Source: Mobula hypostoma
Taxonomy: Eukaryota
Direction: 5' to 3'
Assembly: GCF_963921235.1 (NCBI RefSeq)
Contig: NC_086097.1
Location: 81,780,001-81,844,000 of the forward strand
DNA: 64,000 bases
Shown here: positions 8,581 to 61,980 of the stretch, piece by piece
How positions within the stretch are numbered: the stretch's first letter is position 1
How the letters are laid out: every line of letters begins with the position of its first letter
The notes under the pieces: generated by a model
Told to the model about the DNA's origin: nothing
Database searches by the model: none
The model's input: only the letters and a program-made list of their open reading frames with translations
Position numbers and translations under genes: made by a program

Positions 8581-8609
8581 AGAACTTACAAAGTATTTTA
8601 ATGCAGGTA

Positions 8610-28959: not shown

Positions 28960-30190
28960 AGGTGCCAACCCCTTCTCACAATTCCTCTGTTTCCGCTGCA
29001 TCTGCCCTCAGGATGAAGCTTTTCATTCCAAACTAAGGAGATGTCCTCCTTCTTCAAGGAAAGGGGCTTCCCTTTCTCTACCATCCACAGAGCCTGCAAC
29101 TGCCCCTCTTCCACCTGGCGCTTGTCTGCCCTCACCCTATCCTCCCACCACCCCGCCAGAGATAGGGTTCCTCTTGTTCTCACCTGTCAACCCACCAGCC
29201 TTCGTGTCCAGCACATAGTTTTCCGTAACTTCCACCACGTCCAAAGGAATCCAACCACAAAACCCATCTTTCTCTCACCACCATTATCTGCTTTCCGGAG
29301 GTATCGCTCACTATGTGACACCCTTGTCCACTCAACCCTCCCCACTGATCTTCCTCCTGGCACTTATCCTTGCAAGCAGAACAAGTGTTACGCCTGCCCC
29401 TACACCTCCTCCCTCACTACCAAATAGGGCCCCAAACAGTCCTTCCAGGTGAGGCAACACTTCACCTTTGAGTCTGTTGGGGTTATCTACTGAATCGTAT
29501 CTTCTTGGTGTGGCCTCCTGTATATTGGTAAGACCCGATGTAGATTGGGAGACCACCGCCGATCACCTACATTCCATCCACCAGAAAAAAACAGGATCTC
29601 TCAGTGGCCACCCATTTTAATTTCACTTCCTATTCCCATTCCAACGTGCCAGTCCATGGCCTCCTCTACTGTTGTGATGAGGTCACACTCAGGCTGGAGG
29701 AGCAACACCTCATATTCTGATCGGTAGCCTCCAACCTGATGGCTTGAAAATCGATTTCTCAAAATTCCAATAATGCTCCCCCCTCAACATTCCCCATCCC
29801 CCTTTCCCTCTTTCACCTTATCTCCTCACCTGCCTATTACTTCCCTTTGGTTCACATGTCCCTTCCCTTTCTTCCATGGCCTTCTGTTCTCTCCTGTCAA
29901 ATTCCCCCTTCTCCAGCCCTTTATCTCTTTCACCAATTGAATTCCCAGCTCTTTACTTCACCTCTCCCTCTCTCCTCCGGTTTCACCTATCACCTTGTGT
30001 TTCATCCTCCCCTCCCTCCACGTTTTTTACTCTGACTCCTCATCTTTTTTTTCCAGTCCTGGTGAAGGGTCTTGTCCCGAAATGTTGACTATTTACTCTT
30101 CTCCATAGATGTTACCTGGCCTACTGAGTTCCTCCAGCATTTTGTGTGTATTGCTTGGATTTCCAGCATCTGCAGATTTTCTCTTATTTC
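28960..30190 (+). mobile_element. Penelope-like element 3' portion (RT thumb, Cys linker, GIY-YIG, tail with degenerate hammerhead at 30054-30090)
   Basis: ORF 29041-29427 (MSSFFKERGFP, RVPLVLT, GTYPCKQNKCYAC). Collinear with 17700-18908. Confidence 0.93.
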
Positions 30191-34621: not shown

Positions 34622-35850
34622 GTGGTACTTTATACTTTATACCTTATTGCCACCAAACAATTGATACTAGAACGTACAATCATCACAGCAATATTTGATT
34701 CTGTGCTTCGCGCTCCCTGGAGTACAAATCAATAGTAAATATTAAAAATTTAAATTATAAATCATAAATAGAAAATAGAAAAGGGAAAGTAAGGTAGTGC
34801 AAAAAAAACCGAGAGGCAGGTCTGGATATTTGGAAGGTATGGCCCAGATCTGGGTCAGGATCCATTCAGCAGTCTTATCACATTTGGAAAGAAGCTGTTC
34901 CCAAATCTGGCCGTACGAGTCTTCAAGCTCCTGAGCCTTCTCCCAGAGGGAAGAAGGACGAAAACTGTGTTGGCTGAGTGGGTCGTGTCCTTGATTATCC
35001 TGGCAGCACTGCTCCGACAGTGTGCGGTGTAAAGTGAGTCCAAGGACGGAAGATTGGTTTGTGTGATGTGCTGCGCTGTGTTCACAATCTTCTGCAGCTT
35101 CTTCCGGTCTTGGACAGGATAACTTCCATACCAGGTTGTGATGCACCCCAGAAGAATGCTTTCTATGGTGCATCTTTAAAAATTATTGAGGGTTTTAGGG
35201 GATAGGCCAAGTTTCTTTAGTTTTCTCAGGAAGTAAAGGCACTGGTGGGCCTTCTTGGCAGTGGACTCTGCTTGGTTGGACCAAGTCAGGTCATTTATGA
35301 TATTGACCCCGAGGAACTTAAAGCTTTGGACCTGTTCCACTTGCGCACCACCGATGTAAATTGGGTCTTGCGGTCTGCTACTCCTTCTGCAGTCAACAAC
35401 CAACTCCTTCGTCTTGCTGACGTTGAGGGATAGGTTATTGTCTTTGCACCATGCCATCAGGTTCTTAATTTCCTCTCTGTACTCAAACTCATCGTTACCC
35501 GAGATACGGCCTACAATTGTGGTGTCATCAGCAAACTTATAATTGAGTTCGATGGAAACTTGGCTACACAATCATGGGTGTACAGTGAGTACAGCAGGGG
35601 CTGAGTACACAGCCTTGTGGGGCACCGGTGCTCAGAGTGATTGTAGAGGAGAGCTTGTCCCCTATTTTTACAGCCTGGGTCCTGTCTGTGAGGAAGTTGG
35701 AGATCCAGCTGCAGACCTGAGTGCTAAGGTCCAGGTTCCGGAGCTTAGGAATCAGTTTATTTGGAATGATGGTACTAAAGGCAGAGCTGTAGTCAATGAA
35801 AAGGAGCCTTACATATGTGCCTTTATTCTCCAGGTGTACATGGGCATACT
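34622..35850 (-). mobile_element. Rex1/Babar LINE, 5'-truncated, relatively young
   Basis: ORFs 35564-35857 ([27 protein letters not shown]), 35176-35571 (KFADDTT, FKFLGV) and 34855-35085 (LLPSGRR..RFGNSFFP). Confidence 0.94.
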
Positions 35851-36869
35851 GTGACACTTGAGTTGATGATGACTTAACCCACTATGCTTTGGCGTATGCT
35901 GAGACTTGACTGCTTTACTTTCTTGGCTGCATGCTTTCAGGACTGGCGTTATTGTTATGGTTTGGGTAAAATAAATAAATATAGTACATTGAACAACAGC
36001 AGGAAGGCACAGATTGCCATTGTGGACATCTTGGCACCTAGCTCTACCGGCCCGCATCATCAGTGAGGCTCATGTTCCCTCAGCCCATAAGATCGACAGA
36101 TGCTTCACAGCCCACAACATCGGGCAACCGCTGAATATGACAGCCCACACCTGTTGGGCATGCCACCATTTCCCTCGCATGAAGGGTAGGGACCTATTGA
36201 TCGGTGGACATAGCACTACAAATCTGAAAAATACACTATATCATCTAATGCAGTGCAGATGTGATGGGCTGAATGGCTTAATTCTGCTCCTTTGTCTTAT
36301 GAGCACATGGTCTAATAACTGTGGGGAGAAAAGAGTTAATGTTTTAAGTCCAAGGTAACTGTTCTGACAGTGGCTCTCAGTTCTGTAATGTAATCTTGCT
36401 TGTTGTTTTTGGTACTTTATATTTATGTTTCAGAGTTCCACCATCTGCGGTATTTTTGATTTCCTTTACTGAGGAATACTACTTGATGTGATGCTCATTG
36501 CCTGAAGGTTAATCTTGACTCTAGCTGCAAAAAGCCAGGGGGATAAAAGTTTAAAACCAGGATTGCAGTCAGAATTATAAAAATTCTGATTCTTCCCCAC
36601 TATTAGGAAATGTTTGTGGTTGCAGCAACTTGCAAAGTTGAGTAAAAGCTGTCATAATGAAGATCAATTGCCTGTCACATTGTTCGCTGCTGGTGATCAG
36701 GGAGGACAATTGATCCTAGTACAGATGGAATGGATATAACCATCTGGCAAATTGCCCTTCTTCCCAACCTCTTGCTCCAGCTCCACGTTGTAGTGGCTCT
36801 TCCTGTTAACTTCACACTCTTATGGTCATTCCCAACAGAATGGCTTCTGATACCATCCAGTCTGGGAGA

Positions 36870-37110
36870 AACTGGTTCGTGACTCACAGCTCCCAGGTGC
36901 TGGGTTTGATCCTGATCTCGGGTGATGTCAGTGTAGAGTTTGTGTGTTCTTGTTGTGACCATGTCGTTATCCACTGGTGTCTCCAGTTTAGTTCCCAAAG
37001 ATGGTTGGTGGAACAGAGCAAGGTGCAATGGAACTGATGGAATTTCTTTGTAGGGATCCATCTTGCACTTGGTGGGTCAAGTAGTTCCCTTCTATAGCTG
37101 GTCCTTAGGC
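36870..37110 (+). mobile_element. Degenerate V-SINE
   Basis: CTCACAGCTCC..GGGTTTGATCCTGATCTCGGGTG.TGTC.GTGTAGAGTTTG head followed by a decayed V core. Confidence 0.6.
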
Positions 37111-39143
37111 TTTGGTGCCCACTAGAGTTTTCTGATTACTGGAGGGTGCTTGGTTGCTTGAAGGGGTACATTATATTGTGCAGAATTAGTATAAAAGGGA
37201 GTGTTATCCCAACTATGAAAAGTGGTGATTGACAGAATATGCAATTTCCATGAATCAGATAATGAAGATGTCCATCTCTGTCAGCTAGTGTGCTTATAAG
37301 TTATGTCACCTGACATGTGTTTGTAGCCATGGTAGAATAGAGTATGTAGAGAGAACTGTTTACTGTGTTGGCTTGGTGGTGTCAGAGAAATCACTTCTGC
37401 AACTCTGAGACCAAAAACAATGGATTCAGGGCCCAAACTTCATCTATCCAGTACTTCCAGCCAGCTTTCAAATGCCAGGTTTATCCACGCAGGAAGCCCA
37501 ATTATCCCTTTGTAATACCAATGTGACCTATGTGCTGCTTTTGTGAAGAAAAAAAGAAAATATTATAGCTTTAGCTATTAAATTTTGATTTTTCAATTTT
37601 TTAAAATCTCCGACAATAACATCTCACAGAATGAGTCTACAGTTTTCAGTGTAGGAGAAGCCAAATAGCAGGAAATATATGGTCTACTCAGATTGGAATG
37701 AACGTAACTTACCTTTCTGTTGTGAGTTTTCATGTAAGTTTAACAAATTCATATCATACCATTTAATGTACCTTGATGAGGGAAATCATTTTCATGAATC
37801 TAATACAGTAGACTGTGCCTTATGGATTTCTGATTTTACTGGGTATCCTTTCCTAAAGTTGCTGCAGGTTGTGCACAGAAATAAAGACGACTGATCTTGG
37901 CCTCATGACTATTTTGAGAAAAATTATGCCCTTTACTTCACCTTACCTTGGGATTGTGTTTTTATTCTCTTCTGTCAGCATCCATTTCACTTATCTTTTA
38001 ACTGATAACTCATTCCCAGTAATTTAGGAGATATTAAGCTTCAAGGGAAAAAAACATCAAGCAGATACTATGTGTATTTCATAACTAATTAAATGAAAAC
38101 TCATTTCTAATAACACATTTAGGAGATCTTTTTGAGATATGATTGTGACCTCCCTCACAACGATATTTTAAATAGATCATCGCTCATTCTTTTCAACACC
38201 AATGAAAGTAGGCCAATAGCTCAAAGCCAAATCATTTATCACAGGAATAAACCTAGTGAATTTTCTTTGAACTCTCATCTCTGAATTTCCAAAGAATCAT
38301 TTCACTACGGTTAATTGCTTGTCAGCTGAACTTGTTCTCTTTGATTTTGCGGCACAGAACTCTGTTTTAAATAATTCTTAGAAATCAGTGTTGGACCACA
38401 ATGTACTTGGGTTTCATTTAATTCCAAATTCTCCTGAATATTTATGGTCAAAACTACTCAATTTTCTGACGATTTCCAACAGTTGAATTTGCTTTGAATT
38501 CTGTATGCATTGTCTCATTTTTCTTTAAACAATTCTTTAAAATCCTAACTACAATCTCAAGGATTGTGCAGAAGAACACTTTATATTTTATACCTAAATT
38601 ATTATTATGCAAATACGTAACCAAACTCCTACATGAAACATTGGTTTGTTCTGCTGCACTTAGGAAAAATGAGTCCCATGAATTGGGGACCTCTAAGGAA
38701 ACAATTTAAAAAACTGCAACTTATGTGGTTATTATTTTTAAAAAAAATTGAGATTCTGAAGAACACATGTTGGGCAGAAAAGAATTTTTTCACTTAAGGT
38801 GTACTGAATCATTGGTGTTCTACAAATAAGAATAATATGAAGGCTCACTTGCTGAGCATATTCAATACACAGCCTGATAGAACTCAAGGAAATAAAGTTA
38901 TTGTAGAATTAAGGGCTATTGAGTTCATGCAGGAAAGTGCACTATGGCAAAAGATCAGCCACAATCATACTGAATGGCAGATAGGAATAATCTACTCTTG
39001 CTACTGTTTCTTGTCTCAAGAAAAGGCTGACCTCGTGACTCTATATTTAAAGAGTATCAATTGGTGTTGACTCGATACTACCCTATCTTGACAATTATTG
39101 GACAGAATTGTCTGGACTTTACCCATGCCCACACGCTGGAACC

Positions 39144-39995
39144 TGTCGTGATCGGCAACAATGAATATATCGAGTCAGGACTTACAAACAAACAAACATT
39201 TATTAAACCCTGATAAACAATGAAAAAAAAATGAAAACCCTAAGTGGAAGTAAACGGCTATGCGGCCATTCAGTAAACTGCTACTCAGTACTAGTTCTTA
39301 AAGCGATAATGCGAAATCAGTTCTTAAAGCAATAATTTCAAACACAGTTCTTCGAATAGTAAATTTTAAAGTCCAAGATATTTATATAGTCATTTAGGAG
39401 AGACTTTCACGAAGTAACGAATTCCTCGAAGACACAACGTCACTGCCACTCCCAGTCAGATACTGACTTGTCCACAGGAATCACGACGACAGAAATAGAA
39501 CAGTTTTAAAGGCACTGACCTTCCTCCTCCGTAGAATAGATCTTGCACAGCCTTTCTGCCACTTTTAGCAGACGCTATCTCATGCAGATCACTCTTTCTT
39601 GAATGATTTCAATAATGGTCGGTCCTTTCCAAACCCGTCCAACGTCTCCTTCAGGGTCCCATCTTCACTCTCCAATGTTACTGAAAAGTTACATTAACAA
39701 ACCGGGCAGCGATTGTCAACCTGCCAATCCAGACTTCTGTACCTTACATTAGAACGTAAAACTCCGTTTAAAATCAAAACTGCGTCATACTGCAATTACA
39801 CAGCGGAGCAGAGTATCTCATTGACGTTCTAACTGAAAAACTAACTGCGTCGCCAAGGGTCTTCCCTTTTATACCCGTGGTGAACATGTCATCACGTGAC
39901 CTCACATCGGAGGGAAAATTACATCAGGTGACCTCCAAAAGACCATTACATCGTTCTCACAAGAAAGTCACGGGATCTCCTTGAGGCATGTAACA
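39144..39995 (-). mobile_element. Solo LTR (family D), 852 bp
   Basis: TGT...ACA termini, perfect 4-bp TSD AACC (39140-39143, 39996-39999). Minus-strand TATAAAAG near 39870 and AATAAA near 39200. Internal AGTTCTTAAAGC repeats. Confidence 0.88.
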
Positions 39996-40737
39996 AACCA
40001 TACACTTGGATTTAAGTTGAGAAAGATGGGAAGGTTAATTTTGCAGGCCCTCTGTCTTGGACAGCGAGGTGTCAGCCGAAATACAGCAAAAATATGGAAA
40101 GGTCCAGATCCAGTGTACAGTTTGACAGTTTTACAACCTGTTACTCTGTAAGTGTCTGGAAAGCAGTACAGTTGTCTTTGTCAAAGTTCACATTGAACAG
40201 CTGCAGAGCACAGGGCACAGCAGGGTCACACTCTAAGACATACATTACCTGCTCTGGGGAGCCATCAGTTGAGTGAATACTGCCCTCTGTTTGCCTGAAA
40301 CTCACTAGTTTTCCAGTGAATGGTGCAGTCTACATCCTAGTGTGGCAAAATAACATGTGTCAGTGGATGTTAGGAAGTTCACCACTGGAAAGGCTTCAGT
40401 TTTAGACTCTTGCCATTAAACAGGAAGTGACAAGAATCTGAAAAATCTCATGAATTGGCTGCTGTAAGGTTGCATGTAAATGAAAGCTTATATCATGTCA
40501 ACATAAAAGAATCATATGACGTGCTGAAAATGCCCACTTGACCATTTTCCATTACAAAGATTTGCAATTGTTATGAATATGATACATTTCAGTAAAAAAA
40601 AGGAAACTTTAGAGTTCTTGGCTCAACACTTCCTTCACAGAAGAATGAGACTAATTTTAGTTTAAATGGTTGAACGGTGGCAGTTCTGGTCGGAACCAGT
40701 GACTGCAGCTGGCAAAATATGCTAAAATGTTCTCTAA

Positions 40738-41424
40738 ATTAGATTAGATTATTTAGAGTAGATTAGATTAGATTATGAGGACACTCAGTCCTCGTTTATT
40801 GTCATTTAGAAATGCATGCATGCATTAAGAAATGATACAATGTTCCTCCAGAGCGATATCACAAAAAAAAGACAAACCAAAGACTAACACTGACAAGACC
40901 ACATAATTATAACATATAGTTACAGCAGTGCAAAGCAATACCATAATTTGATAAAGAGCAGACCATGGGAATGGTAAAAAAGGTCTCAAAGTTCCGATCC
41001 CGATAGTCCCCGCTAGTCCCCGCTAGCAGGTGGCAGAAGGGAGAAACTCTTTCTGCCATAAACCACCAGGCACCGACAACTGTCGATGCACTGGAAGCAG
41101 CCGACTCTGAGTCCATCTGAAAACTTCGAGCCTCCGACACCTAGCACCAAGCACCATCTCTGCCGAGCACTTCGACACCGTCCCGGCCGCTGAGCAACAA
41201 GCAAAGCTGAGGATTTGGGGCCTTCCCCTCCGGAGATTCAGAATCACACAGTAACAGAGGCAGCGAAAACGGCATTTCAGAAGTTTCTCCAGATGTTCCT
41301 CCGTTCTCTCACGTCTGTCTCCATCAAATCAGGATTATGCATGGCACCCTACTTGACAGATTACAGATATCATTCACCGGAGTGGCCGTGCAAGCTGCGT
41401 TGCGCCGCCATCTTCTCCTCCTCC
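40738..41424 (-). mobile_element. Non-autonomous retroelement with AAGATGGCGGCG head and (TAATC)n tail
   Basis: CpG-rich body, minus-strand GACAATAAA before the microsatellite tail, no ORF. Confidence 0.75.
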
Positions 41425-42150
41425 ACTAACTCAGCATCCCACCTTCACACTTCTCACCAGTCCACTGTTGAATCTCCCTGGTGTTGAAGATGATGGACAA
41501 GCGCTAGAAGCTGGGATTAATTACAGATAGATCCCCACTAGTCAGTGTGGATGTGGCGGACCAAATGTCTGCTTCTATTGCTGTCTGACTCTATGTCCAT
41601 ATATATGAACTTCCATATATGGATTTGGCCCTGAAAATCTAGGCCACTGTCTAGAGATTTAGTGCAATTCACGTTTGGCTAAGTTAACTAAATACCCCTT
41701 TTCACAATAGAAAAATTGATCATTTGCACAAGATAGCACATCTAATCAGATATTTTCTTTTGAAGTCTAATTCTTTAGGGAATCAGTTTTGTAACATTTT
41801 ACATGATCCATGGTGGTTTGCTATTTTTATGAATAAGAGCATTTTGCAAAATAATGTTGAACAATTAACACCACAGGGCACAATCCGATTGTGAAATAAT
41901 AGTGGTTAGTGTTCTAGCAGAGAGTAAGAATAAAAGAAATGACAAGCACTTCTTTCACTATTTCCACTGCAAGAGAATAAAAAATAGAAACAATAATCAC
42001 ACTGAATGCTCCTAAAGGTGACATGAATCAAGAAGCAGCAAATCTATTGTGAATTCTAAACATAAAATTCTCTGTAGATGCTGGAGTCAAATCAACACAT
42101 ACAACACGCTGGAGGAACTCAGCAGGTCGGGCAGCATCTGTGGAAATGAA

Positions 42151-42188
42151 CAGTCAACGTTTCGGGCCAAGACCCTTCATCAGGACTG
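42151..42188 (-). ncRNA. Minimal type I hammerhead ribozyme, intact core
   Basis: Minus strand reads CAGTC-CTGATGA-A-GGGT.CTTG.GCCC-GAAAC-GTT-GACTG: 5-bp stem I, stem II, palindromic AACGTT. Predicted cut between 42156 and 42155. Confidence 0.85.
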
Positions 42189-43697
42189 AAGAAGGAAGGG
42201 GCAGAGGCCTATAAAGAAGGTGGGGGGAGGGTGGGAAGGAGAAGGCTGGTAGGTTCCAGGTGAAAAACCAGTAAGGGGAAAGATAAAGGGGTGGGGGAGG
42301 GGAGGCAGGGAGGGGATAGGCAGGAAAGGTGAAGAAGGAATAGGGGAAAACACAATGGGTAGTAGAAGGAGGTGGAACCAAGAGGGAGGTGATAGGCAGC
42401 TGGAGGAGGGGGCAGAGTGAAACTGGGATGGGGGAAGGGAGGGAGAGGGAATTACAGGAAGTTGGAGAATTCAATGTTCATGCCCAGGGGCTGGTGACTA
42501 CCTAGGCGGTATATGAGGTGTTGTTCCTCCAACCTGAGTTTGGCCTCATCATGCCAGTAGAGGAGGCCATGTATGGACATATCCAAATGGGAAGGTGAAG
42601 CAGATTTGAAGTGGGTGGCAACCGGGAGATCCTGTCTATTGTGGCGGACGGAGTGGAGGTGCTCAACGAAGCGGTCCCCCAATCTGCGTCGGGTTTCACC
42701 CATGTAGAGGAGGCCGCACCGGGAGCACCAGATGCAATAGATGACCCCAACAGGCTGACAAGTGAAATGTTGCCTCACCTGGAAGGACTGTTTGGGGCCC
42801 TGAATAGTGGTGAGACAGGAGGTATAGGGACAGGTGCAGCATTTAAGCTTGCAGGGATAAATGCCGGGTGGGAGATCTGTGGGGAGGGACATGTGGACTA
42901 GGGAGTTGCGGAGGGAACGATCCCTGCGGAAAGCGGTGAGGAGTAGAGAGGGAAAGATATGCTTAGTTGTGGGGTCCTGTTGAAGGTGGCGAAAGTTGCG
43001 GAGGATAATGTGCTGGATCCAGGGGATGGTGGGGTTGTAGGTGAGGACAAGGGGAACTCTGTCCCTGTTGTGGTGATGGGAGGATGGGAGGATGGGGTGA
43101 GAGCCGAAGTGCGGGAAATGGAGGAGATGCAGATGAGGGCATCATTGATGACGGCAGAAGGGAAACCACGATCCTTAAAGAAAGAGGACATTTGAGATGT
43201 CCTGGAACGGAAAGCCTCATCCTGGGAGCAGATGCGGCAGAGGCGGAGGAACTGGGAATAGGGAATAGACTTTTTGCATGTGGCAAGGTGGGAAGAGGTA
43301 TAGTCGAGTAGTTAGGAGAGTCAGTGGGCTTATAGAAGATGTGCAAACTCAGGTTGGAGGGACAACACCTCATATACCGTCTGGGTAGTCTCCAGCCCCT
43401 TGGCATGAATGTTGAATTCTCCAACTTCCTGTAATTCCCTCCCCCTCCCTTCCTCTATCCCTATTTCACTCTGTCCCCTCCCCCAGCAGCCTATCACCTC
43501 ACTCTTGGTTCTGCCTCCTTCTACTACCCATTGTGTTTTCCCCTATTCCTTCTTCACCTTTCCTGCCTATCCCCTCCCTGCTTCCTCTCCCCCACCCCTT
43601 TATCTTTCCCCTTACTGGTTTTTCACCTGGCACCTAAATGCCTTCTCCTTCCCACCCTCCCCCCACCTTCTTTGTAGGGCCCCTGCCCCTTCCTCTT

Positions 43698-43735
43698 CAG
43701 TCCTGACGAAGGGTCTCGACCTGAAACGTTGACTG
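43698..43735 (+). ncRNA. Minimal type I hammerhead ribozyme, intact core
   Basis: CAGTC-CTGACGA-A-GGGT.CTCG.ACCT-GAAAC-GTT-GACTG. Predicted cut after 43730. Confidence 0.85.
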
Positions 43736-44867
43736 TTCGTTTCCACGGATGCTGGCCGACCTGCTGAGTTCCTCCAGCGTGTTGTGCGTGTTCCTGTTGT
43801 GAATTCTTCCTTCCAGTGTGCACACTGGAGACAACAGAGGTTGTCCCAGGTCCCAGTTCACACACTGAATGTTTGCAAGGTGGAGGAAGTATAAAAGAAA
43901 TAGAATATATCAGGCTGGGCAGGTAATGATTCGACGAAGAAGAATAAGGCATGAGGCTCAGATAGATTTTAATGCAAAGTGATTAAAGAATTGTGTAGGC
44001 AAACATTTGCTACCCTTTCTAGCAGGTTTGGGAATTTTTGGAACGAGATTAGTGCTAGCCAATGGTAACAGCAAAGAATGATACTGTATAAAAGGATCTC
44101 CCCTTGATTAGTTATACCTGCTTTTTGCAAAAGCTCCCCAGTAAGGCCCAGTCGCCTGCTCAGACCCTTCAACCACTTCTTTAAAATGATGTAGCTAACA
44201 TAAAGTAGATTACTTGAAAGAGACGTAAGAGAAACACAAGACATTTAGACCACAAAGTAGAAAGGTTTTAATGAAATGTTGAAAGTGTGTGTACTGATAC
44301 ATCTAAACATGGACTATAGTTACCACCCAGCTAGCATGAATTACGAAGATAGGATTTTACCTTAAATGCTTATTAACTTTCACTTCATTTCCAGTCAGAC
44401 ATAAAATGCACAGAGTTCTGGCCCACACTCTAAAGCAATTGCAAGCAACGCAGAAAGTAAAGAGGTCAGTGTGTGCAGTGTATGTGCTGGCACAATGCTG
44501 ATGCTCTGCTTCTCTTGAATTACTGGGCACCTCTGTGTTTTGAAAAATTGTAGTAAATATGCTGTATTAGATCAATGACCAACCAGAAACAGAAGCTTCA
44601 TACTCATTAATATAGAGCAATACAGAACAAATGTACAATAACAAAGGAAGAAGAGATCAATTTAATTATGTCATTAAAATTGAGAAGCATAAAATGTATG
44701 ACTTAACAGACTTAAATAAAACTAAAAACAAAAGTCTGGTGGAATAGGGTAAAAAAAAATTGGAGCTGGTTCATTTACAAGCAAGAAAATCGCACCATGC
44801 AAATTAGACTTTTGGAGATTTAGCACAGGCTGTGTATTGTTAATCCTAATGCCATGTAGAAATTAAT

Positions 44868-45320
44868 TCATAAGGCCATAAGACATAAGAGCAGAGTTAG
44901 GCCATTTAGCCCATCGAGTCGTCCTCCATTCCATCATGGCTAATTTATTATCCCTCTCAACCAAATTCTCCAGCCTTCTCCTTGTGACCTTTGATGCCCT
45001 GATTAATCAAGAACCTATCAACTTCCACCTTATATAAACCCAATGACTTGGCCTGCACAGCTGCCTGTGCAATGAATTCCACAGTTTCACCATCCTCTAG
45101 CTAAATAAATTTTTCCTCATCTCTGCTCTACTGTAAATAGACATCCTTCTATCCTGAGGCTGTGCCCTCTGGTCTTAGATACACCCACTATTGGAAACAT
45201 CCTCTCCACAACCTCTCTATATAGACCTTTCAATACTTGATAGATTTTAATGAGATTCCTCCTCATTGTTATAAACTCCAGTGAGTACAGGCCCAAGAAC
45301 CATCAAATGATCCTCCTATT
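44868..45320 (-). mobile_element. CR1 3' end, probably belonging to the element at 46054-49185
   Basis: CATAAGACATAAGAGCAGAGTTAGGCCATT tail. Similar to 52688-53110. Confidence 0.85.
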
Positions 45321-45344
45321 CCTGAAACTCCTTGAACTCTCTTC

Positions 45345-46053
45345 CAGTTTAAAACCAAGCCACATTTTGCCTGTTTTGGTTGGAGCAGTTAAACCTCTAA
45401 GCAAACTGTGTGCTTTAAATCCAATGCACTCAGCAAAACTGGTTGGCAATTTGGTTTCTCACTGGCAATTTGATTTGCTTCAAAGTACTGCTCAGTCCAC
45501 TCAGTATAGTTATCCATTGTACAATGGAACACGTCTATCTTTCCAATGTAGCTTTTGTTTTATTTACTTATTATTATTATCACCTGTTACTCACCATTTA
45601 CAAAATAATGGATTCTTCCTTTTTCTGCCTTGTTTTTCACCATCATCTCTCCTTTTGTGAAGAGAACAGCTATTCTGAAGGGAAAAAAAAGTGCTTTTTT
45701 TTTAACTCAACTGTCTTGCAGCGCTCTTTTTTAACTTGAGCGTCTCACTGCGCTCCAACAGGCAGATTGCCATCTGGGGTTTGTTTTTATTTTTAAAAAA
45801 TCACAACTGTTATGGTTTGTACTCCAAAACATAAAATCTAATTGAAGGGCAAAGTCGGAAGTCCAAAATGTATGTATAACTTCATTTTTAACTTTAAATG
45901 TAGCATGCAACATATCACGTGGTTGCGCATGACATATGTATTTCACATATTTTACACATAACCCATAAACTATTTAAATATATGAGAATGCTTAAATCAA
46001 ACAATGTACTTACAATATCACTGAAATACTGCTGAAATATTAAATACAAAACA
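45345..46053 (-). mobile_element. Truncated Gypsy retrotransposon: LTR (45808-46053), leader and start of gag (~45555-45345)
   Basis: TGT...ACA LTR. Manual minus-strand translation gives YIGKIDVF..YTEWTEQYFEANQIASEK..PVLLSAL..HSLLRGLTAPTK (with a frameshift), a typical Gypsy gag N-terminus not shown in the ORF track. Confidence 0.8.
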
Positions 46054-47028
46054 ATCCACGCCTTTATTCTTTCTACCAAAGTGAATGGCAATGCACTTCC
46101 CTACAATATATTCAATCTGTCACTTTTTAACCCATTCTCGCATCTGCCTATGTCTTTCAGCAGACGCCCCGCCTCCTCAACACTACCTGCCCCTCCACCT
46201 ATCTTCATATTATCCACAAACCTAGCCACAAAGCCATCAATTCCTTCATCCAAATCATTGACATATAACATGAAAAGAAGCAGTCCCGACACTAACTCTT
46301 GCAAAACACCACTTGTCACCAGGAGCCAACCAGAAGAGACCCCTTTATTCCCACTCTTTGGCTCCTGCCAGTCAGTCAATCTTCTATTCATGGTAGTATC
46401 TTTCCTGCAAATACCATGGGTTCTTATCTTGTTAAGCAGCCTCATGTGCAGATCTTTGTCAAAAGCCTTCTGTAAGTCAAAATAAATAACATCCACTGAC
46501 TCTCTTTTGTCTGTGCTGCCTATTATTTCCTCAAAGAACTCCAACAGATTTATAGGGCAAGATCTCCCATTACAGAAACCAGGCTGACATTGGCCTATTT
46601 TATCTTGTGCCTCCAAGTACACTGAAACCCTAACTTTACTATTCGACTCCAACATCTATCCAACACTGAAGTCCGGCTAACTGTATTATAATTTCCTTTC
46701 TTCTGCCTCCCTCCATCCTTAAAGAGTGGAGTGGAATCTGTGATTTTCCATTCCTCCAGAACTATTTCAAAATCCAGTGATTCTTGAAAGATCATTACTA
46801 AGGCCTTCACAATCTCTTCAGTTATATTTTTCAGAACACTGGGGTGTAGTCCATATGGTCCAGGTGACTTACCTACTTTCAAACTTCTCAGTTTCCAAAG
46901 CACTTGCTCCTTAGTCATTGACACTCACTTCTGCCCTCTGACACTTATAATTTTCTGGCATACTGATAGTACTTTCCACTGTGAAGTTTGATGTAAAATA
47001 CTTTGCCCCCCCATTACTACCACTCCAG

Positions 47029-47593
47029 GAGTTGTGGGATCTCCCAGTGAGCACCTATTTTAATTCCACTTCCCATTCCCATTCCGACATGTCAGTCCAT
47101 GGCCTCCCCTACTGTCACGATGAGGCCACACTCAGGTTGGAGGAGCAACACCTTATATTCCGGCTGGGTAGTCTCCAACCTGATGGCATAAACATTGATT
47201 TCTCAAACTTCCGGTAATAATTCCCCCCACCCCCCTTCAACTTTCCCCATTCCCATTTCCCCCTCTCACCTTATCTTCTTAACTGCATATCACCTCCCTC
47301 TGGTGCTCCTCCCCCCTTTACTTTCTTCCATGGGCTTCTGTCCTCTCCTATCAGAATCCCCCTTCTCTACTCCTTTATCTCTTTCACCCATTGACTTCCC
47401 AGCTCTTTACTTCAGCGCTCTCCCCCTACCAGTTTTACCTATCAGCTTGTGTTTCTTCCTCCCATCTCCCTACATTCTTACTCTGACTCTTCTTTTCCCC
47501 CAATCCTGATGAAGGGTCTCAGCCTGAAACCAACTGTACTCTTTTCCATAGATGCTGTCCAGCCTGCTGTGTTCCTCTAGCATTTTGTGTGTG
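47029..47593 (+). mobile_element. PLE 3' fragment (GIY-YIG C-terminus and tail with damaged hammerhead at 47502-47536)
   Basis: ORF 46981-47217 (RLEEQHLIFRLGSLQPDGINIDF). 15-bp TSD with 2 mismatches at 47014-47028 and 47594-47608. Confidence 0.92.
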
Positions 47594-48312
47594 TTACTAT
47601 CTCTCCAGTGTCATTTTCCAGCTGTGCAATATCCACTCTTGTCTCTCTTCTACTCTTTATATATCTGAAAAAAACCTTTTTGTGTCCTCTTTAATATTAC
47701 TGGCTAGCTTAGCTTCATATTTCAGTTTTTCTACGTGCCTTCCGTTGACTTTTAAAAGCTGGCAAATCTTCTGCTTTCCCACTTATTTTTGTTACATCAT
47801 ATGCTCTCAGTTTTTCTTTTATGCTGTCTTTGACTTCCCTTGTTTCTTCCTCTCTTTAGAATACTTCTTCATCTTTGGGATGTATCTATTCTCTGCCTTC
47901 CTAATTTCCCCCTAGAAACTCCAGCATTTGCTGTCCTGCTATCATCCCTGCTAGTGTCTCCATTCAATCAACTTTGGCCAGCTCCTCTATCAGGCCTCTA
48001 ATTCCCTTTACTCTGCTGTAATGCTGATACATCTGATTTAACTTCTCCTTCTCAAACTGCAGGGTGAATTCTACCATATTATGATTACTTCCTCCTGAGG
48101 GTTCCTTTACCTAAAGCTCCGTAATCAATACTGGGTCATACATAACACCCAGTCCAGAATTGCTCTTTCCCCAGTGGACACAACCAGAAGCTGCACTTAA
48201 AAAAAAAACATCTTGTAGACATTCTACAAACTCCTTCTCTTGGGATCCAGCACCAACCTGATTTTTCCAATCTACCTGCATATTGAAATCTCCCATGATC
48301 ATTGTAACATTG

Positions 48313-48576
48313 CCGGCTGGTGGCACAGCGGCATCAGTGCCAGACTTCAGAGCAAAGGCTCTAGAGTTCGAATCCAAGTCGGGCCATTCCCCACCCCCGA
48401 GCACGCTTTCCATCAGTGCCGGGTTGAGCGTCAAGCCAGCCACGCAGCCTCGTAAAAAACAAAGGGTTGAGTTGGGAACTTTCATATCATGACCTGGTTA
48501 ATCTGAATGGAGACCAATCCTGACACCACGAGCCAGACAAGAATGGTTAACTGTCTGGTGTGACACGCTAGGAAGG
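48313..48576 (+). mobile_element. tRNA-derived SINE, full length
   Basis: A-box-like TGGCACAGCGG and B-box AGTTCGAATCC. 12-bp TSD ATTG(T/C)AACATTG at 48301-48312 and 48577-48588. Confidence 0.85.
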
Positions 48577-51550
48577 ATTGCAACATTGTCGTTTTTACAT
48601 GACTTTTCTATCTTTTATTGTAATGTGTAGCCCACATCCTGGCTACTGTTTGGGAGCCTGTATATAACTCCCACCAGGGTCTTTTTACCCCTGTAGTCTC
48701 TTACTCTATGCACAAGGATTCTCCAGCTTCCAATCCTATGTCACCTCTTTCTAAGGATTTGATTTCATTTTTTACCAACAGAGCTACATCACTGCCTCTG
48801 CCCACCTGCCTGACCTTTCAATACATTGTGTATTCTTGGATTTATGCTCCCAACTATGACCTTCTTTGAGTCACATCTCAGCGATGCCCACAGCATACCT
48901 GCCAATCTCTAAGTGCGCTACAATATCATCTATTTTATTCTGATACTGTGTGCATTCAGATATAACACCGTCAGTCCTGTATTCATCACCCTTTTCGATT
49001 TTGGCTGCCAGTTGCACTTTATCTCATCTCACTGACTGCAATTTTGCCTTATCATCTGTATGTCCTTCCTCACTGTCTCACTGCTCACTGCATCTAGTTA
49101 TATACCAAACACCCCATCCTCAGCCCTATCATCCCTGCCAAATTAGTTTAAACCCTCCCCAACAGCTCTAGCATGAACTGAGTATGAATGCCTTTCTTTG
49201 ATTGTTTCCACTGTATTTTTTTCTGCATTGTAGTTATTTATCTGAAAGATACATTCAAGGACTAACTATTGATGGAGCCAGTACCCCATCTCCTATGGTT
49301 CTCATACCTCCTCTCAAACAGGACACATGTCATATATACAGTGTGTATATATATATTTGCACTTCCTAATGGAAGTTAGGAAAGGCACTGCATTTGCAAA
49401 TTGGAAATACATAACTTTTGATTTCAATCTAAAGAAACAGCTTCAGTATTATGTCCAAAGTTCATTTAATGATTTGTAAACACACAGAATATGAACAAAG
49501 TGGGAACCTCTGTTTACTCTTAGAAAACTTAGTCTAGGTTTTAGTATTTCCTATTCAACAAAAAGTGCAAGTTTATGAACCTAATCCCATCTCATAGAGT
49601 TTCTGTTTACTCAAACCTGATTGAAACTACATGCAGACAGAAAAGTGAATGAATGATCAGGCTTACAAAGAAAGTTGTTAGCAAGTCATTCCTGGACCAT
49701 TTATGTGCAAAGCAATGTAGCTTATTGTCAGCAAACAGTGAGAACTACAAAGAACTAATAAATCCTGTTCTTTCATTCAAGAGTCTAAAACAAGTTCTCT
49801 TTTAATATTTGGACATGTCAATATTTGTTATTTTTCCATTACAAACCAAGGCAAACAAAGGTTAATGAAGATGTCGCTGCACTGGGTTGAATGTGGGGAT
49901 GGCAGGGCACAGAAATAGTTAATCACCACACACACCAATTAGCATACTTGTATCAGCATAAAATAATGAGTGAAAGCAAATAAAACTGAACCAGGTTAAA
50001 TGGCACCTGCAGTTCCTCATAACAACCTGAAAACACAAGTCATTGTTGTCGATATTTCTAAAGTTACTATTGCAAATCATTTTTGATTGTTCTTTTTTAA
50101 TGTATTACCAAATCAATAATATACACTGGAGCTCTCACTGTTGTTTGATGCACTTACGCAGCAAATACAAAGCAGCAATTTACAATTGCATTACATGTTT
50201 TAACACAGTAAAATAATCCCAAGGCAATTCACAGAAAACAATATTTGACACAGATAAAGAAATAAATATCAGGGTGGTGACTCAAAGCTATCACTAGCCT
50301 TTTATTTGCTCAGACATGATGAATACTATCTTGGCTGGTGTCCCATCTTAAACCTTCTGTAAACTGGAAATGATCCAAACTCTACTATCATGCACCAAAC
50401 TCCATTCACCCTTCACTCCTGGACTTGTGGAATAATAATAAGTCTTAATCCATCAAAATGTCAATTTTAAATTTATCGTTTTCCTGCTGATATATCACCG
50501 GAATTTGTAATGTGAGACAGTGGATCTCATTATGACAGAGAAGGCTGAGGTGCATGGGGAAATGTCCTCAGTATTCCGAATTAAGTATATCCATATGGAT
50601 AGTGAGTGAGGATTAAGAGCACTTTGATTACAATTTCCCTTGAAGAGGCAATGTAATGTTTACAATAATGGTGTGAATGACTGAAGCAACCAATTCTCAA
50701 TGGAGCTGGTGCAGAGTTTTCACAATCTTCATTGTGACTGATGTACACAACCATAAATGGCACTGCAATAACAGTTGCATTTAAAGCCTCTCTACTCCAA
50801 ACCTTTTTACCTGCAAATGGTTCCAGATCACTTTTTTCCAGCCATCAATGTTTGCATTGCACCCGTGGCTGACAGGAAATTTAGTCATGCACACCCATCT
50901 GATTTTTGAAACAGAAGGCTTGGGGTCCAGGCAAAATGTACAATTCTTCCTTGTCCAGAGCCTTGTTGCTTGCACCAATTCATTTTACTTTCAAATGAAT
51001 TCACTACTTTTGAAAATAACTAGATACAAACGTCATACTGAGCAATTGCTCTGATAATTATTTAGTCCTGTGCTCCTTTTTCTGGAAGCTGCAAAGTTTT
51101 GCTGAACCAGAGATGGGGACATGGTTGGATACCAGCAGGCCTCCAAAGTCATTAAATACATTGAGCAGAAGCAGAGTCCTGACCACGTGTGAATTCAAGG
51201 CCAAGTTAAAATGCCCTTTTAAAAGTGGACAAGTTTGAATACCTGAACAAGTCCCTGTAGCTGTTTCTGATCCCTCTCATTTTCCATCACAAACTAGTAT
51301 GCCATCTAACTTTATTCTGCAAAGGACAACATCCTGGGATGGCATCCTGTTGGCTCCATCAGTGAAAGACAGACCGTGATGACATAGATGTGAAAGGGTG
51401 GCAAAACGAGCCAGTGGAGGGAGCAGTTTGATGGCATCTCACTGAATAAAGCAGTCAGCATTCCCCACTTGCATTAACAAACATGTCCAACGTCCTTCCT
51501 AGTCCTTCCACCCAATAAATTCAACACACCTGATACTGCAGAATTATAAT

Positions 51551-52687
51551 CAAGTCAAGTCAAGTCAAATTTATTTATAAAGCAAAGTGCTGTACAAACC
51601 ATAACAGGTAGCTAAAATCACAAATACAAGAAACACAGATATAAACAACAAGGCACACAGCTTATAGGCACAAAATAAACAACACATGAGCCTAGGCACA
51701 TGCCAAAAATCGGCCACATCAGGAAGATTCAAACGCTAGTGAATAAAGGTAAGTTTTGAGCCTGGACTTAAAAGAGTCAATGGAGGGGGCAGATCTGTTA
51801 GGGAGGGGAATGCTGTTCCACAGTCTAGGGGCTACAACAGCAAAGGTGCGGTCGCCCCTGAACTTAAATTTAGATCTGAGACAGCCAGGAGCCCCAAGTC
51901 AGCCGACCTGAGGGACCTGGAAGTAGAATAAGGGGTTAGAAGGTCTGTGATATAGGAGGGGGCCAGCCCATTTAGGGCTTTATAAACAAACAGGAGAACC
52001 TTAAAATCAATTCTGAACCGTACTGGTAGCCAGTGGAGAGAGGCCAGGATAGGAGTAATATGGTCCCTCTTCCAGACACCTGTCAGGAGCCTGGCCGCGG
52101 CATTCTGGACCAGTCGCAGGTGGGACAGGGATGACTGACTAATCCCAGTGTACAGGGAGTTGGAGTAGTCCAAGCAGGAGGATATAAGGGCATGGATGAC
52201 TTTCTCGAGATCTTTAAAAGAGAGAAACGATTTGATTTTGGCAATAGTATGAAGCTGGAAAAAAATGCCTTTTACTACTGCATTAACTGCTTGTCAAACT
52301 TAAAGGTGGAATCAAATATCACACCAAGTTTTCTGACATGGGGTTTGACAATGGTAGACAGGTTACCAAGACTGTTGGTAATCACTTTGTTGGAGTCAGG
52401 GGGGCCAAATAGGACAACTTCAGACTTGCCTTCATTCGGCTGTAGGAAGTTTTGTGTCATCCAACACTTCATGTCCTCAAAGCAGTTCTTGAGGCTGACT
52501 GGATTTGACTGGTCGTTTGGTTTCAAGGGGAGATGAAGCTGTGCGTTATCAGCATAACAATGGAAGGAAAAGTCATGTTTTTGAATGATTTGGCCGAGGG
52601 GAAGCATGTATATCGAGAAAAGAATGGGACCTAGGATGGAACCTTGTGGGACCCCGCAGGAGAAACTAGCTGGAGAAGAGGAAAATT
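51551..52687 (-). mobile_element. L2 LINE 3' portion (RT C-terminus, (ACTTG)n tail)
   Basis: [30 protein letters not shown] and DYSNSL..LVQNAAARLLT..DHITPILASLHWLPV.FRIDFK..LAPSYI (ORFs 52275-52607, 51832-52173). Confidence 0.95.
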
Positions 52688-58061: not shown

Positions 58062-58201
58062 AGAGTATAGTCGACTGCTGAAGGGTCTTGGCCCAAAACA
58101 CCGACTGTACTTTTTTCCTAGGTGCTGCCTGGCCTGCTGAGTTCCTCCAGCATTTTGTGTGTGTTGCTCGGATTTCCAGCATCTGCATATTTTCTCTTAT
58201 T
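58062..58201 (+). mobile_element. PLE 3'-terminal mini-insertion with 13-nt 5' inversion
   Basis: Perfect 13-bp TSD TATGACATGGATC (58049-58061, 58202-58214). CTGCTGA-variant hammerhead remnant plus tail. Confidence 0.92.
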
Positions 58202-59114
58202 TATGACATGGATCTATCCTGTTACTGCAAAATCTGGCCCTATTTTTTTCGTTATCATTATTTCTGTTAGCTCTGTTGCTGAATGACTATTTGAAATTTT
58301 GGAAACTGGATTTAACATACACACAGAAAGGGGTACACAATGCTCCAGCTCCCCACAGGCCAAAACTACGGGAAGTGGAAAGTATGTTTTTTTCTGACAT
58401 GACCACATCCACCACAGGACCTCTCCATTCTTCAGTTCACTAGAAAATCAAAGTGTTCAGATCAACCCAATGCAGAAACTAAATCTAATTTTTGTGCAGA
58501 TATCAAAGCACGGATTTGTCTATTGTTTATCCTTTGTACAAATTCTAAGTATGTTATCAATGACACCATCTCATAAAAAGAAGCAGAAGAGCACTTCTGT
58601 CTGAGCTAAGTATTCTACTACAATACCAATCAAACATCGCAGCTGATCTGACTGAAGCCTCGAAAGACAGTTACTCGTGACAAAGGGCCCATTGACTGCA
58701 GAAAATATTTTTGTGCACGGGAGAATCAGAACCACGTAAGGTACCAAGTACCTGATCATTTCAATGAGAAAGGTGGAATGAGATCATTTGTTCATGCCAC
58801 TAACTGATGATTTACTGCGGTGTTATGTTGTATTTTAATTAAAGCAAATGGGAGCCCAGTCAGCAGTTTGGAATGGAAATCAGAGTTCACATTGCGATTC
58901 TGGTCGATGATAAATATCACAAAAGGAAAACTCATCTCTGAGTGAGTTACAGAAGTATGCTAACATGTATCACTATATATGTATAGGGAATTAAAAAGTG
59001 AAGTGCATTAAAAAAATTATTATTACAAAAAAAAAACAACAATTAATATTTGAAACTCTAGCACCCCAGCTCAGTATCCAGTGAGCAATTTCTTGTGTGA
59101 ACAAGTCAGCTAAT

Positions 59115-60580: not shown

Positions 60581-61980
60581 CAGGGCTGGACTTTAGGCAG
60601 GGCTAGGCTGGGCTGCAGCCCAGGGGCTCGAGCTGCAGAGGTGCCCAAAATAGGTAGCTATCATCATGGCGGACAAAAAAAAATACGAGAACGGAGCACA
60701 GAAAAAAAAACAAAAAAAAGAGGACCGTGAGAAAGAAGCATTAAAAAAGACATTGAAATTGACAGAATTTTTAAAACTTGTTCTCGATGATGCAGCAGTA
60801 CCATTGCTCTTGTCACAGTCTGAGACCGATGGACAAATGGAGACTTGTTCAACAACTAGCGCCAGCACCAGCGTTAGCACAGGACCACCGTCCTTGTCAG
60901 AGTCAGCAGCTAATGTTGAAGAGGCAGAGAGCATGACTTTGGGATTCCCGACCACAAAGACCTCCAAACAACCAAGTCGGGCCGCCATTAATGTTAACGT
61001 TACCGTTACTGAGGATCCTTACAACACTGATCCTGCTCGCAGGAGAAGGGAAATGTTAGATGATTCAGTCCAAGCATACTGGGTTAAGAAAGGGCCGGAG
61101 TCCTGCCAGAATAAGGATGTGGATATCAAAGCTTCGGAATGAGTATACAAACAGCAGAGACATTTTTACTCCAAATTTCACTTCAAACGCAAGCTCGTAA
61201 ATGGTGACTACATATCAAGGCAATGGCTCTTATATTCCCCTTTCCACCTGCTGTGTGTTTTGTTTTGCATGCCACACCTTCAGTGACGGTAACTGTCAGT
61301 CCATCTTCGAAACTGGCTTAACGACTGGAAACATGACTTTGATCACATAAGAGGCCATGAAAATAGTGAACACCACAGGAAAACGATACTGATCTACGTT
61401 ACATTAGCGTCTGACAGCGGAAGAATAGGTACAGAACTGCAAAAACAGTTCGAGTCAGAGTGTGTCTACTGGACCGACATATTGAGAAGAGTGGTGGCGG
61501 TTGTGAAGGTTTTGGTCAAGAGGGGACTAGCTATCCGAGGCTCCAGTGACATATTTGGTAGGCCTGATAACGGCAACTACATGAGCATTGAGGTAATAAG
61601 TGAGTTTGACCCATCTTTGAAGGTGCACATATAGAAATTTGGAAATGCAGGATCAGACACCCCTTCATACCCTTCACCTAAAACATGTGAGGAGTTTATT
61701 GAGCTCATGAGTGATCGAGTTCTGTCAGAGATCTAAACTTAGGTCAATTTTTGAGTGCTTTAGATGCTGTCCTTCAAGCTAAGAACCTGCATTACTTTCT
61801 GTCCTCCCCCTTAAGGCCTGTAAGTTTATAGCCTACGTATTGTACTAAACCAATGTCTTGGCCCACAGCTTTGATATTTAGACCAGTACGATCTTTGCTC
61901 TTGTTCTTGCTTTTTCTTGCTTGGTACAGCAGTATTTTACGATGTTGGCAGGGGCCCCAGCCCCACTAAATCCAGCCCTG
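60581..61980 (+). mobile_element. hAT DNA transposon (Tip100/ZMYM1-like group), 1400-bp internal-deletion derivative
   Basis: TIRs CAGGGCTGGA(C)TTTAG and perfect 8-bp TSD ACTGTAGC (60573-60580, 61981-61988). Confidence 0.95.
60666..61735 (+). pseudogene. Disrupted hAT transposase N-terminal half (TTF-type zinc finger and DUF4371-like region)
   Basis: ORF 60666-61142 (GAQKKKQK basic start). Past a TGA it continues RQWLLYSP..VFCFAC..NDWKH..HENSEHH..YW.DILRRVVAVVK.L.KRGLAIRG..DNGNY..CEEFIELM. The DDE and dimerisation domains are absent. Confidence 0.88.

What the first reader, a model, noticed from the sequence alone, without database searches (positions are those of the whole stretch)
42058..43793. 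One PLE insertion with ~445-bp inverted arms and an intact hammerhead on each strand
Seen: a 14-bp TSD (one mismatch) brackets both arms, so they arose in one event. Both ribozyme cores (42151-42188 minus, 43698-43735 plus) are intact with AACGTT palindromes and face outward. Inference: a read-through transcript from either strand carries one sense ribozyme and its antisense copy, so it could fold a long hairpin that silences the ribozyme and feeds ADAR or Dicer. Cleavage would need pairing of two transcripts. The GUU triplet is weaker than the GUC seen in other copies.
Basis: partly seen in the sequence, partly recalled or inferred. Interest (0 to 1): 0.7.

Follow-up and report, generated by a model that had tools for sequence, protein, structure and literature searches.

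The report
Ordinary head-to-head Penelope retrotransposon insertion
This is a broken, back-to-back insertion of a Penelope-like jumping gene that arrived in one event, in a layout already described for these elements and shared by about a fifth of the sister copies sampled; its two mirror arms were likely copied from related but non-identical templates, a small clue to how these elements insert rather than a sign of a regulated ribozyme switch.

Summary
Observation confirmed. The arms (42094-42542, 43344-43792) match at 413 of 450 columns, a 14-bp TSD brackets them, and contigs of two other organisms join the flanks across one TSD copy, so this was one event. It is a 5'-truncated, frameshifted Neptune/Nematis-type Penelope-like element (PLE) in the published layout: an inverted truncated copy, with a 36-nt tail on one arm only. 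15 of 79 sampled sister loci look the same. All 17 two-arm loci examined have a TSD; one tailed plus one tailless arm in 16 by script, 17 by eye. GUU is the family's majority triplet (58 of 98). Both cores intact is expected about 29% of the time, and the right arm has lost G10.1-C11.1. The hairpin is predicted if transcribed; expression and editing are untested, and nothing shows selection. The arms differ at 7 of 18 haplotype columns yet share rare alleles, which suggests two related templates; a tree test did not support this. Arm divergence therefore cannot simply date the event. The scan reported this layout, and mismatched arms, before on other DNA.

The parts
42044..42057 (+). Left target-site duplication (14 bp; its allele at the one mismatch matches the empty site)
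   Evidence: D17; empty-site contigs break at 42046/43797
42058..42093 (-). 36-nt PLE tail, present on the left arm only; the element's full 3' end
   Evidence: most family copies end at this position
42094..42542 (-). Left (tailed) arm: last ~90 nt of the endonuclease ORF, 3' UTR and pLTR with hammerhead
42151..42188 (-). Minimal type-I hammerhead motif; core and G10.1-C11.1 intact, extra A after A9, GUU; predicted cut after 42156
   Evidence: description in PMC4209133
42452..43141 (-). Open frame (229 aa) holding the RT-EN linker, a C-x3-C-x2-C motif (about 42830-42853) and the C-terminal GIY-YIG endonuclease (VIY...CxxC...YMG, about 42698-42745) up to its stop
   Evidence: Pfam GIY-YIG E=0.00095, below the gathering cut-off; 41% identity to residues 604-818 of the full-length RT-EN protein P0001
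43080..43343 (-). C-terminal remnant of the reverse transcriptase, frameshifted; the RT catalytic core is lost by 5' truncation at about 43342
   Evidence: three frames; P0001 residues 535 onward; longer sister copies carry RVT_1
43343..43344 (.). Head-to-head junction of the two 5'-truncated pieces; asymmetric, no palindrome, at most one unmatched base
43344..43792 (+). Right (tailless) inverted arm, 5'-truncated inside the endonuclease end and stopping 33-36 nt short of the element's 3' end
43698..43735 (+). Minimal type-I hammerhead motif; core intact, C11.1 changed to U (CpG-type change), GUU; predicted cut after 43730
43794..43807 (+). Right target-site duplication (one mismatch at 43796)

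Best explanation
This is a single, non-coding insertion of an endonuclease-bearing Penelope-like retrotransposon with two 5'-truncated pieces joined head to head, likely made when both ends of a 14-nt staggered cut primed reverse transcription, and now likely decaying neutrally. Shown: one event (TSD, empty site), PLE identity, broken ORF, one tailed and one tailless arm, and the same layout in many sister loci. Inferred: the endonuclease nicked both strands 14 nt apart. The plus-strand 3'-OH primed cDNA from the tail end and ran about 1,285 nt; the minus-strand 3'-OH primed about 35 nt further inside and ran about 450 nt; the two cDNA ends were joined almost bluntly. Both hammerheads face outward because each arm ends in the element's 3' end. 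Also inferred, and weaker (about 55%): the two cDNAs came wholly or in tracts from related but non-identical RNA units. Any hairpin, editing or small RNA would be a by-product of read-through, as for other inverted repeats.
For: TSD and empty site. 21 of 79 unselected sister loci are head-to-head and 15 of 79 have two 3'-end arms. All 17 other two-arm loci (15 plus 2 hand-picked) have an 11-18-bp TSD; one tailed plus one tailless arm in 16 of 17 by script, 17 of 17 by eye. In 6 of 17 the tailless arm reaches further 5' than the tailed arm, which a fold-back copy cannot do. The anole Poseidon protein cleaves and extends both strands and starts at two sites that bound the tail (PMC11167929, main text read). 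Neutral decay: arm-arm divergence 35/448 against 7.2 +/- 1.5% for unrelated pairs; the hammerhead columns vary no less than the UTR (mean 0.087 vs 0.041); core intact in 53 of 98 other arms. Non-identical templates: 7 of 18 linked non-CpG columns differ against 23 of 403 conserved columns (p=3.6e-5 under point mutation alone); 7 of 18 pairs are discordant at p<0.005.
Against: No biochemical test was possible, and the two-strand priming data come from a different clade (Poseidon). The AU test did not reject the two arms as one clade (p=0.68; the constrained tree scored higher than the free tree), so the tree that separated them is no support. The arms share rare alleles (two non-CpG, at 3 of 91 and 5 of 95 other rows, plus one transversion at a CpG column, 1 of 94), which points to a common source. 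With a threefold mutation rate the haplotype p is only 0.024. 11 of 18 pairs are not significantly discordant. Both cores are intact here, against 1 of the 11 other pairs with both motifs covered, which is slightly more than chance favours.
Confidence: 0.8

Rival explanations
1. One RNA, two start sites: both nicks were copied from the same RNA unit, so the arms began identical, and the haplotype tracts came later by gene conversion from other family copies or by parallel mutation.
For: Rare alleles are shared between the arms here and in 4 other pairs (2 or more shared in 5 of 18 pairs, against 42 of 4,267 unrelated pairs). The strict one-tailed/one-tailless pairing fits a single coordinated template. 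The other 17 pairs differ at 53 of 249 linked columns, fewer than the 96.5 expected for random pairs. AU test negative.
Against: 53 of 249 is far above the 11-12 expected from point mutation (my arithmetic from the conserved-column rates). The differing columns are spread over about 300 nt. Most of the right arm's combination recurs at an unlinked locus, L032 (the column set was partly chosen after seeing the differences). Frequent ectopic conversion would be expected to homogenise the adjacent arms, and they are not homogenised.
Confidence: 0.3
2. Self-priming or fold-back (proposed in PMC3846280): the inverted arm is a copy of the first strand or of an antisense template, made by snap-back at the junction.
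For: In this locus the tailless arm lies wholly within the span of the tailed piece. Head-to-head units with junction palindromes are described in Adineta (PMC3846280, passages).
Against: No palindrome at this junction, and the two 5' ends are about 800 nt apart in the element. The arms differ at haplotype columns. In 6 of 17 sister loci the tailless arm contains sequence absent from the tailed arm.
Confidence: 0.08
3. Regulated ribozyme/dsRNA unit: the locus is kept because its hairpin silences the hammerheads and feeds ADAR or Dicer.
For: Predicted hairpin of 421-430 inter-arm pairs, -1029 to -1153 kcal/mol for the whole unit, which buries the sense ribozyme. Both cores intact. Penelope is heavily edited in lizard (PMC5625713, passages). 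Arm differences favour G.U in the plus-strand hairpin 17 to 8 (not significant, two-sided p about 0.11 by my arithmetic).
Against: The layout is common. No sign of maintained complementarity. Right G10.1-C11.1 lost. The insertion is absent from organisms C and D, so it is lineage-restricted. Minimal hammerheads showed no monomer cleavage and low dimer cleavage (PMC4209133); the anole one needed protein (PMC11167929).
Confidence: 0.04
4. Two independent insertions that happen to abut.
For: The arms are as different as unrelated copies and carry different haplotype tracts.
Against: One TSD brackets both and no second TSD flanks either arm. The empty site lacks both arms. The same bracketed layout occurs in 17 of 17 sister two-arm loci.
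Confidence: 0.02

Closest known systems
Canonical EN+ PLE insertion unit with adjacent inverted 5'-truncated copy and one-sided tail (PMC8557442 Fig. 2 legend and passages; Pen2a_Av and Pen2 of Adineta vaga, PMC3846280 passages)
   Same: Head-to-head inverted 5'-truncated copy, 30-40-bp tail on one end only, TSD around the whole unit, hammerhead in the terminal repeat, RT followed by a C-terminal GIY-YIG.
   Different: Both pieces are 5'-truncated, with no upstream direct pLTR and no full ORF. The inverted arm is 449 nt and includes ORF and UTR, not only the pLTR. No palindrome at the junction. The TSD is 14 bp, against 8-10 bp in the Adineta examples.
Neptune/Nematis clades of PLEs (definition in PMC8557442)
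   Same: [quoted passage not shown]
   Different: Neptune against Nematis was not resolved: no named reference sequences were available for a tree.
Poseidon of Anolis carolinensis (PAc; PMC11167929, main text and part of methods read)
   Same: Tail defined by two start sites; both strands cleaved and extended in vitro; hammerhead not needed for insertion.
   Different: Another clade (no linker Zn finger). In the parts read, that paper does not test how inverted units form or whether the two arms use one RNA or two.
Minimal hammerheads of metazoan PLEs (PMC4209133, results and discussion read)
   Same: No helix III, palindromic 15.2-16.2, extra nucleotide between 9 and 10.1, dual motifs on opposite strands.
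   Different: The two motifs here are about 1.5 kb apart (the paper mentions about 100-700 bp in Schistosoma). The right motif has G.U at 10.1-11.1.
L1 twin priming (recalled; not read here)
   Same: Both ends of a staggered cut prime cDNA and give a head-to-head junction inside one TSD.
   Different: L1 inversions are non-overlapping parts of one RNA; here both arms repeat the same 3' region. Sister locus L003 does show a nearly non-overlapping inversion.

Membership tests
Canonical EN+ PLE | RT followed by a C-terminal GIY-YIG endonuclease in one ORF | tested here: met
   The fragments align in order to residues 535-818 of the RT-EN protein P0001; GIY-YIG E=0.00095, below the cut-off; RVT_1 in 3 of 4 longer sister ORFs, above the cut-off in 2. 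The ORF is broken and truncated in this copy.
Canonical EN+ PLE | CCHH motif with two cysteines between GIY and YIG | tested here: met
   VIYCIWCSRCGLLYMG followed by EH and HF, aligned with P0001; read by eye against the definition in PMC8557442
Canonical EN+ PLE | Inverted 5'-truncated copy adjacent at the 5' end, 30-40-bp tail at one end, TSD | tested here: met
Canonical EN+ PLE | Partial direct tandem forming an upstream pLTR | tested here: not met
   This copy is truncated inside the RT; no direct repeat upstream. A feature of complete copies, not required of truncated ones.
Neptune/Nematis | CX2-5CxxC motif in the RT-EN linker | tested here: met
   C-x3-C-x2-C at ORF residues 97-104
Neptune/Nematis | RT phylogeny with named clade members | not tested
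   The 7 homologues carry no clade names
Minimal type-I hammerhead of PLEs | Core CUGANGA/GAAA, NUH, stem I, extra nucleotide after A9, palindromic 15.2-16.2 | tested here: met
   Both arms; no Rfam match
Minimal type-I hammerhead of PLEs | G10.1-C11.1 pair | tested here: inconclusive
   Met in the left arm, G.U in the right arm
Minimal type-I hammerhead of PLEs | Self-cleavage as a dimer | not testable with these tools
   Needs an in vitro assay; the lowest-energy cofold of two copies was not the active dimer
Non-LTR retrozyme | Non-coding head-to-tail tandem units, each with a hammerhead (bioRxiv 10.64898/2026.07.22.740005, first part read) | tested here: not met
   The unit is inverted, not tandem, and carries PLE coding sequence
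Self-primed fold-back unit | Palindrome at the inverted junction; arms copied from each other | tested here: not met
   Asymmetric junction; haplotype differences

The most novel reading that the evidence does not exclude
PLE inverted units are built by an asymmetric two-ended reaction: one nick always primes at the tail end and the other at the internal start site, and in a large share of events (7 of 18 here) the two cDNAs come from related but different RNA units, as a dimeric RNP or a multi-unit transcript would allow. This would explain the inverted ends, the one-sided tail and the family's mosaic haplotypes together, and would replace self-priming as the general model.
Probability: 0.45. 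Interest if true: 0.55.

Novelty: new member of a known kind. Interest (0 to 1): 0.25.

Why it matters
The locus itself is one of many such fossils and shows no sign of a host role. Its value is as a data point on an open question, how PLEs make their inverted ends. The sister loci give two testable rules: one tailed arm is paired with one tailless arm inside one TSD (all 18 loci, one of them by eye), and the arms often carry different source haplotypes while sharing rare alleles. The published in vitro PAc system could test both with two marked RNAs. A practical consequence is that arm-to-arm divergence should not be used like LTR-LTR divergence to date PLE insertions. Five paper searches on PLE inversions listed no paper whose title or abstract start reports the two-template pattern; subscription papers such as the 2005-2006 PLE reviews and Lunse 2017 could not be read, and no supplements were opened.

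Tried and rejected
Rfam at gathering over the whole window and at E<=10 over 41900-43950: no hammerhead family. Single-strand folds of the two motifs have unremarkable z-scores (-0.4 to -0.8); the right motif's best 51-nt fold is not the hammerhead shape. Expression: no RNA holder listed. Three runs guessed to be RNA were laid at 97% likeness as contigs. One (X6) covers unique flanks on both sides at depth 2.6-6.8, which could be pre-mRNA or DNA. No canonical splice joint appeared among the 15 joints shown (261 more not shown), and there was one A>G place, also seen in the DNA run. Contigs drop rare variants, so this says nothing for or against editing. Host gene: 150 of 317 non-repeat open frames of 45 aa or more were scanned against Pfam; hits were two transposon domains and one weak sub-threshold cytochrome match, so gene context and read-through strand stay unknown. 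Tree of 94 arm rows: it placed the two arms in different starred groups and 4 of 12 pairs as sisters, but the bootstrap had not settled and the AU test did not reject one clade for any of 3 pairs tried (p 0.60-0.68); rejected as evidence. Dating by arm divergence: rejected as unsafe. Bracketing is used instead: present in organism B (left junction bridged; right junction only 26 nt into the arm, under the 31-nt rule; about 2.3% from the window over those two contigs) and absent in D (about 3.6%) and C (about 7%, gappy). A wobble bias that would favour a selected hairpin: not significant. Lunse 2017 not held; its dimer result was seen only through a review (PMC6765202, passages). The place look-up of earlier findings gave nothing near this window.

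Full report
Observation. The two arms are real: 42094-42542 and 43344-43792, 449 nt, 91% complementary, with 413 of 450 aligned columns identical and mostly transitions. A 14-bp direct repeat with one mismatch (42044-42057, 43794-43807) brackets the unit. Its score of 11 exceeds all 132 shuffled flank pairings, whose maximum was 9. Organism B has the left junction, and a contig reaching 26 nt into the right arm, short of the tool's 31-nt rule. Differences from the window over these contigs are about 2.3% for B, 3.6% for D and 7% for C (from table 8 counts; C is gappy). The insertion is therefore one event and lineage-restricted.

Identity. On the minus strand, 43343 to 42058 reads as the C-terminal remnant of a PLE reverse transcriptase, a linker with C-x3-C-x2-C, a GIY-YIG endonuclease with CxxC between its two motifs, a stop at 42452, a 3' UTR, the hammerhead and a 36-nt tail. 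The pieces align in order to residues 535-818 of a full-length RT-EN protein, but in different frames, and the RT core is missing, so the copy cannot encode the enzyme. The linker motif places it with Neptune/Nematis by the definition in PMC8557442 (passages); no tree with named references was made. The right arm is a second copy of the 3' end, starting about 90 nt before the stop and ending 33-36 nt short of the tail end. The junction at 43343/43344 is asymmetric, with no palindrome.

How common. Searches of the own genome (3.48 Gb) gave 4,417-6,481 first-look candidates each; 40 were scored per search and 30 returned as loci. After removing 10 duplicates and extending 17 loci there were 82 distinct loci: this one, 79 unselected and 2 hand-picked as inverted. 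21 of 79 are head-to-head and 15 of 79 have two arms that both reach the 3' end region. The sample favours long, little-decayed copies, and two loci run off the fetched edge before their 5' end. All 17 other two-arm loci have a TSD of 11-18 bp with score 8 or more (null 3 of 132 at 8 or more, with a slightly narrower search window; two loci score only 8-9; L058 needed a wider window). One arm is tailed and the other 31-51 nt short in 16 of 17 by script, and in L058 by eye, where the tail has an internal deletion. Among 22 loci found with the tailless query that lack two 3'-end arms, 14 were tailed and 8 tailless, so the strict pairing is not what independent choice of ends would give. This is the layout described in PMC8557442 (inverted 5'-truncated copy, 30-40-bp tail at one end) and for Pen2a in PMC3846280 (passages). 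PMC4209133 already notes dual minimal hammerheads on opposite strands.

Ribozymes. Both motifs fit the minimal type-I description: 5-bp stem I, core boxes, an extra A after A9, a 3-bp stem II and no helix III. The right one has U at 11.1, as do 11 of 67 other arms. GUU is the family majority (58 of 98; GUC 25). The core is intact in 53 of 98 other arms, so two intact cores are expected about 29% of the time; it was seen in 1 of 11 other pairs with both motifs covered. With G10.1-C11.1 required, this locus fails on the right. Hammerhead columns vary no less than the UTR. Published tests found no cleavage of a minimal hammerhead as a monomer and low cleavage as a dimer (PMC4209133); the anole motif needed protein and was not needed for insertion (PMC11167929).

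Hairpin and editing. If transcribed through, either strand is predicted to form 421-430 inter-arm pairs and bury 35-37 of the 38 sense ribozyme nucleotides. In either direction the antisense copy is made first. That follows from the geometry of every head-to-head unit. Penelope repeats are already reported as heavily edited in lizard (PMC5625713, passages). The available run data cannot settle expression or editing here (see Tried and rejected), and no host exon was identified. Arm-arm divergence is 35/448, against 7.2 +/- 1.5% for 1,947 unrelated pairs, so nothing shows that complementarity is being kept.

Template question. The family has linked non-CpG polymorphisms: 85 of 1,275 column pairs at p<0.001, against 0 of 2,415 for CpG-type columns, defined without the two-arm loci. 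The arms of this locus differ at 7 of 18 such columns and at 23 of 403 conserved columns (p=3.6e-5 under point mutation; 0.024 at three times the rate). Seven of 18 pairs are discordant at p<0.005. The other 17 pairs differ at 53 of 249 columns, between the 11-12 expected for one template (my arithmetic) and the 96.5 expected for random pairs. Against a simple two-RNA reading: the arms share rare alleles (two non-CpG, one at a CpG column), 5 of 18 pairs share two or more against 42 of 4,267 unrelated pairs, and the AU test did not reject the arms as one clade (p=0.68). The best description is related but non-identical templates, or one template with exchanged tracts; later gene conversion is not excluded. 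Fold-back fails as a general model because in 6 of 17 sister loci the tailless arm reaches further 5' than the tailed arm.

Mechanism, committed. The endonuclease makes two nicks 14 nt apart (inferred from the TSD). Each 3'-OH primes reverse transcription (inferred; shown in vitro for both strands in Poseidon), one at the tail end and one about 35 nt inside (inferred from the 18 loci and the two start sites in PMC11167929). Both cDNAs stop early and are joined (inferred). The product is a dead insertion. Confidence is 0.8 for a neutral, single-event, double-primed unit, about 0.55 that the templates differed at insertion, and under 0.05 for a regulated ribozyme switch.

Earlier scan notes (AI notes, leads only). 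33 findings in at least 17 genomes hold the same key words, and the 8 shown describe this layout; several report mismatched arms, two of them in this genome. My haplotype test was run before I saw them. One note favours one RNA with two start sites; the data here fit that for some pairs and not for others.

Papers seen: PMC11167929 parts 1-2 of 4; PMC4209133 parts 1-2 of 4; bioRxiv 10.64898/2026.07.22.740005 part 1 of 5; passages of PMC8557442, PMC3846280, PMC6765202 and PMC5625713; no supplements, which may hold further examples of inverted units. L1 twin priming and the hammerhead numbering applied to these motifs are from recall.

Verdict: real, correctly delimited, a new member of a known kind; interest 0.25.

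Noticed in passing
window 8427-8752: Older head-to-head PLE stub: two hammerhead-region ends in opposite orientation, self-complementary at about 69% over 270 nt.
   Followed up: no
window 1327-1450, 6132-6263, 7623-8111, 14351-14467, 17212-18915, 28963-30189, 47037-47608, 58068-58213: At least eight more PLE fragments of more distant subfamilies (66-82% to this element); those at 6127, 14359 and 47498 carry hammerhead-like cores.
   Followed up: partly
L003 (G000:C50:116198843-116202327): Inversion in which the inverted piece is an upstream part of the ORF that barely overlaps the main piece, like L1 twin priming; no TSD found.
   Followed up: partly
L018 and L059: Three-piece inverted units: an extra internal ORF fragment sits at the junction inside one perfect 14-15-bp TSD, which suggests template jumps during one insertion.
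   Followed up: partly
L093:3176-7994 (G000:C22, from 154225300): A 958-aa open frame between two 861-bp direct repeats 99.5% identical; looks like a very young LTR-type element next to a PLE copy.
   Followed up: no
window 60654-61634: Two open frames that resemble a hAT-type transposase remnant (recalled resemblance; no Pfam hit).
   Followed up: partly
window 63340-63690 and 51832-52685: Tf2-1-like SH3 domain (LTR retrotransposon remnant) and a LINE RT fragment.
   Followed up: no
family-wide, loci L002-L109: The 3' UTR haplotypes of this PLE family are strongly mosaic, with blocks recombining freely, which points to frequent template exchange.
   Followed up: partly
window 35790-49522: Run X6 (RNA only by guess) covers unique sequence at low depth across about 14 kb on both sides of the insertion, while X16 and X17 mostly do not; pre-mRNA or DNA carry-over cannot be told apart.
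   Followed up: partly
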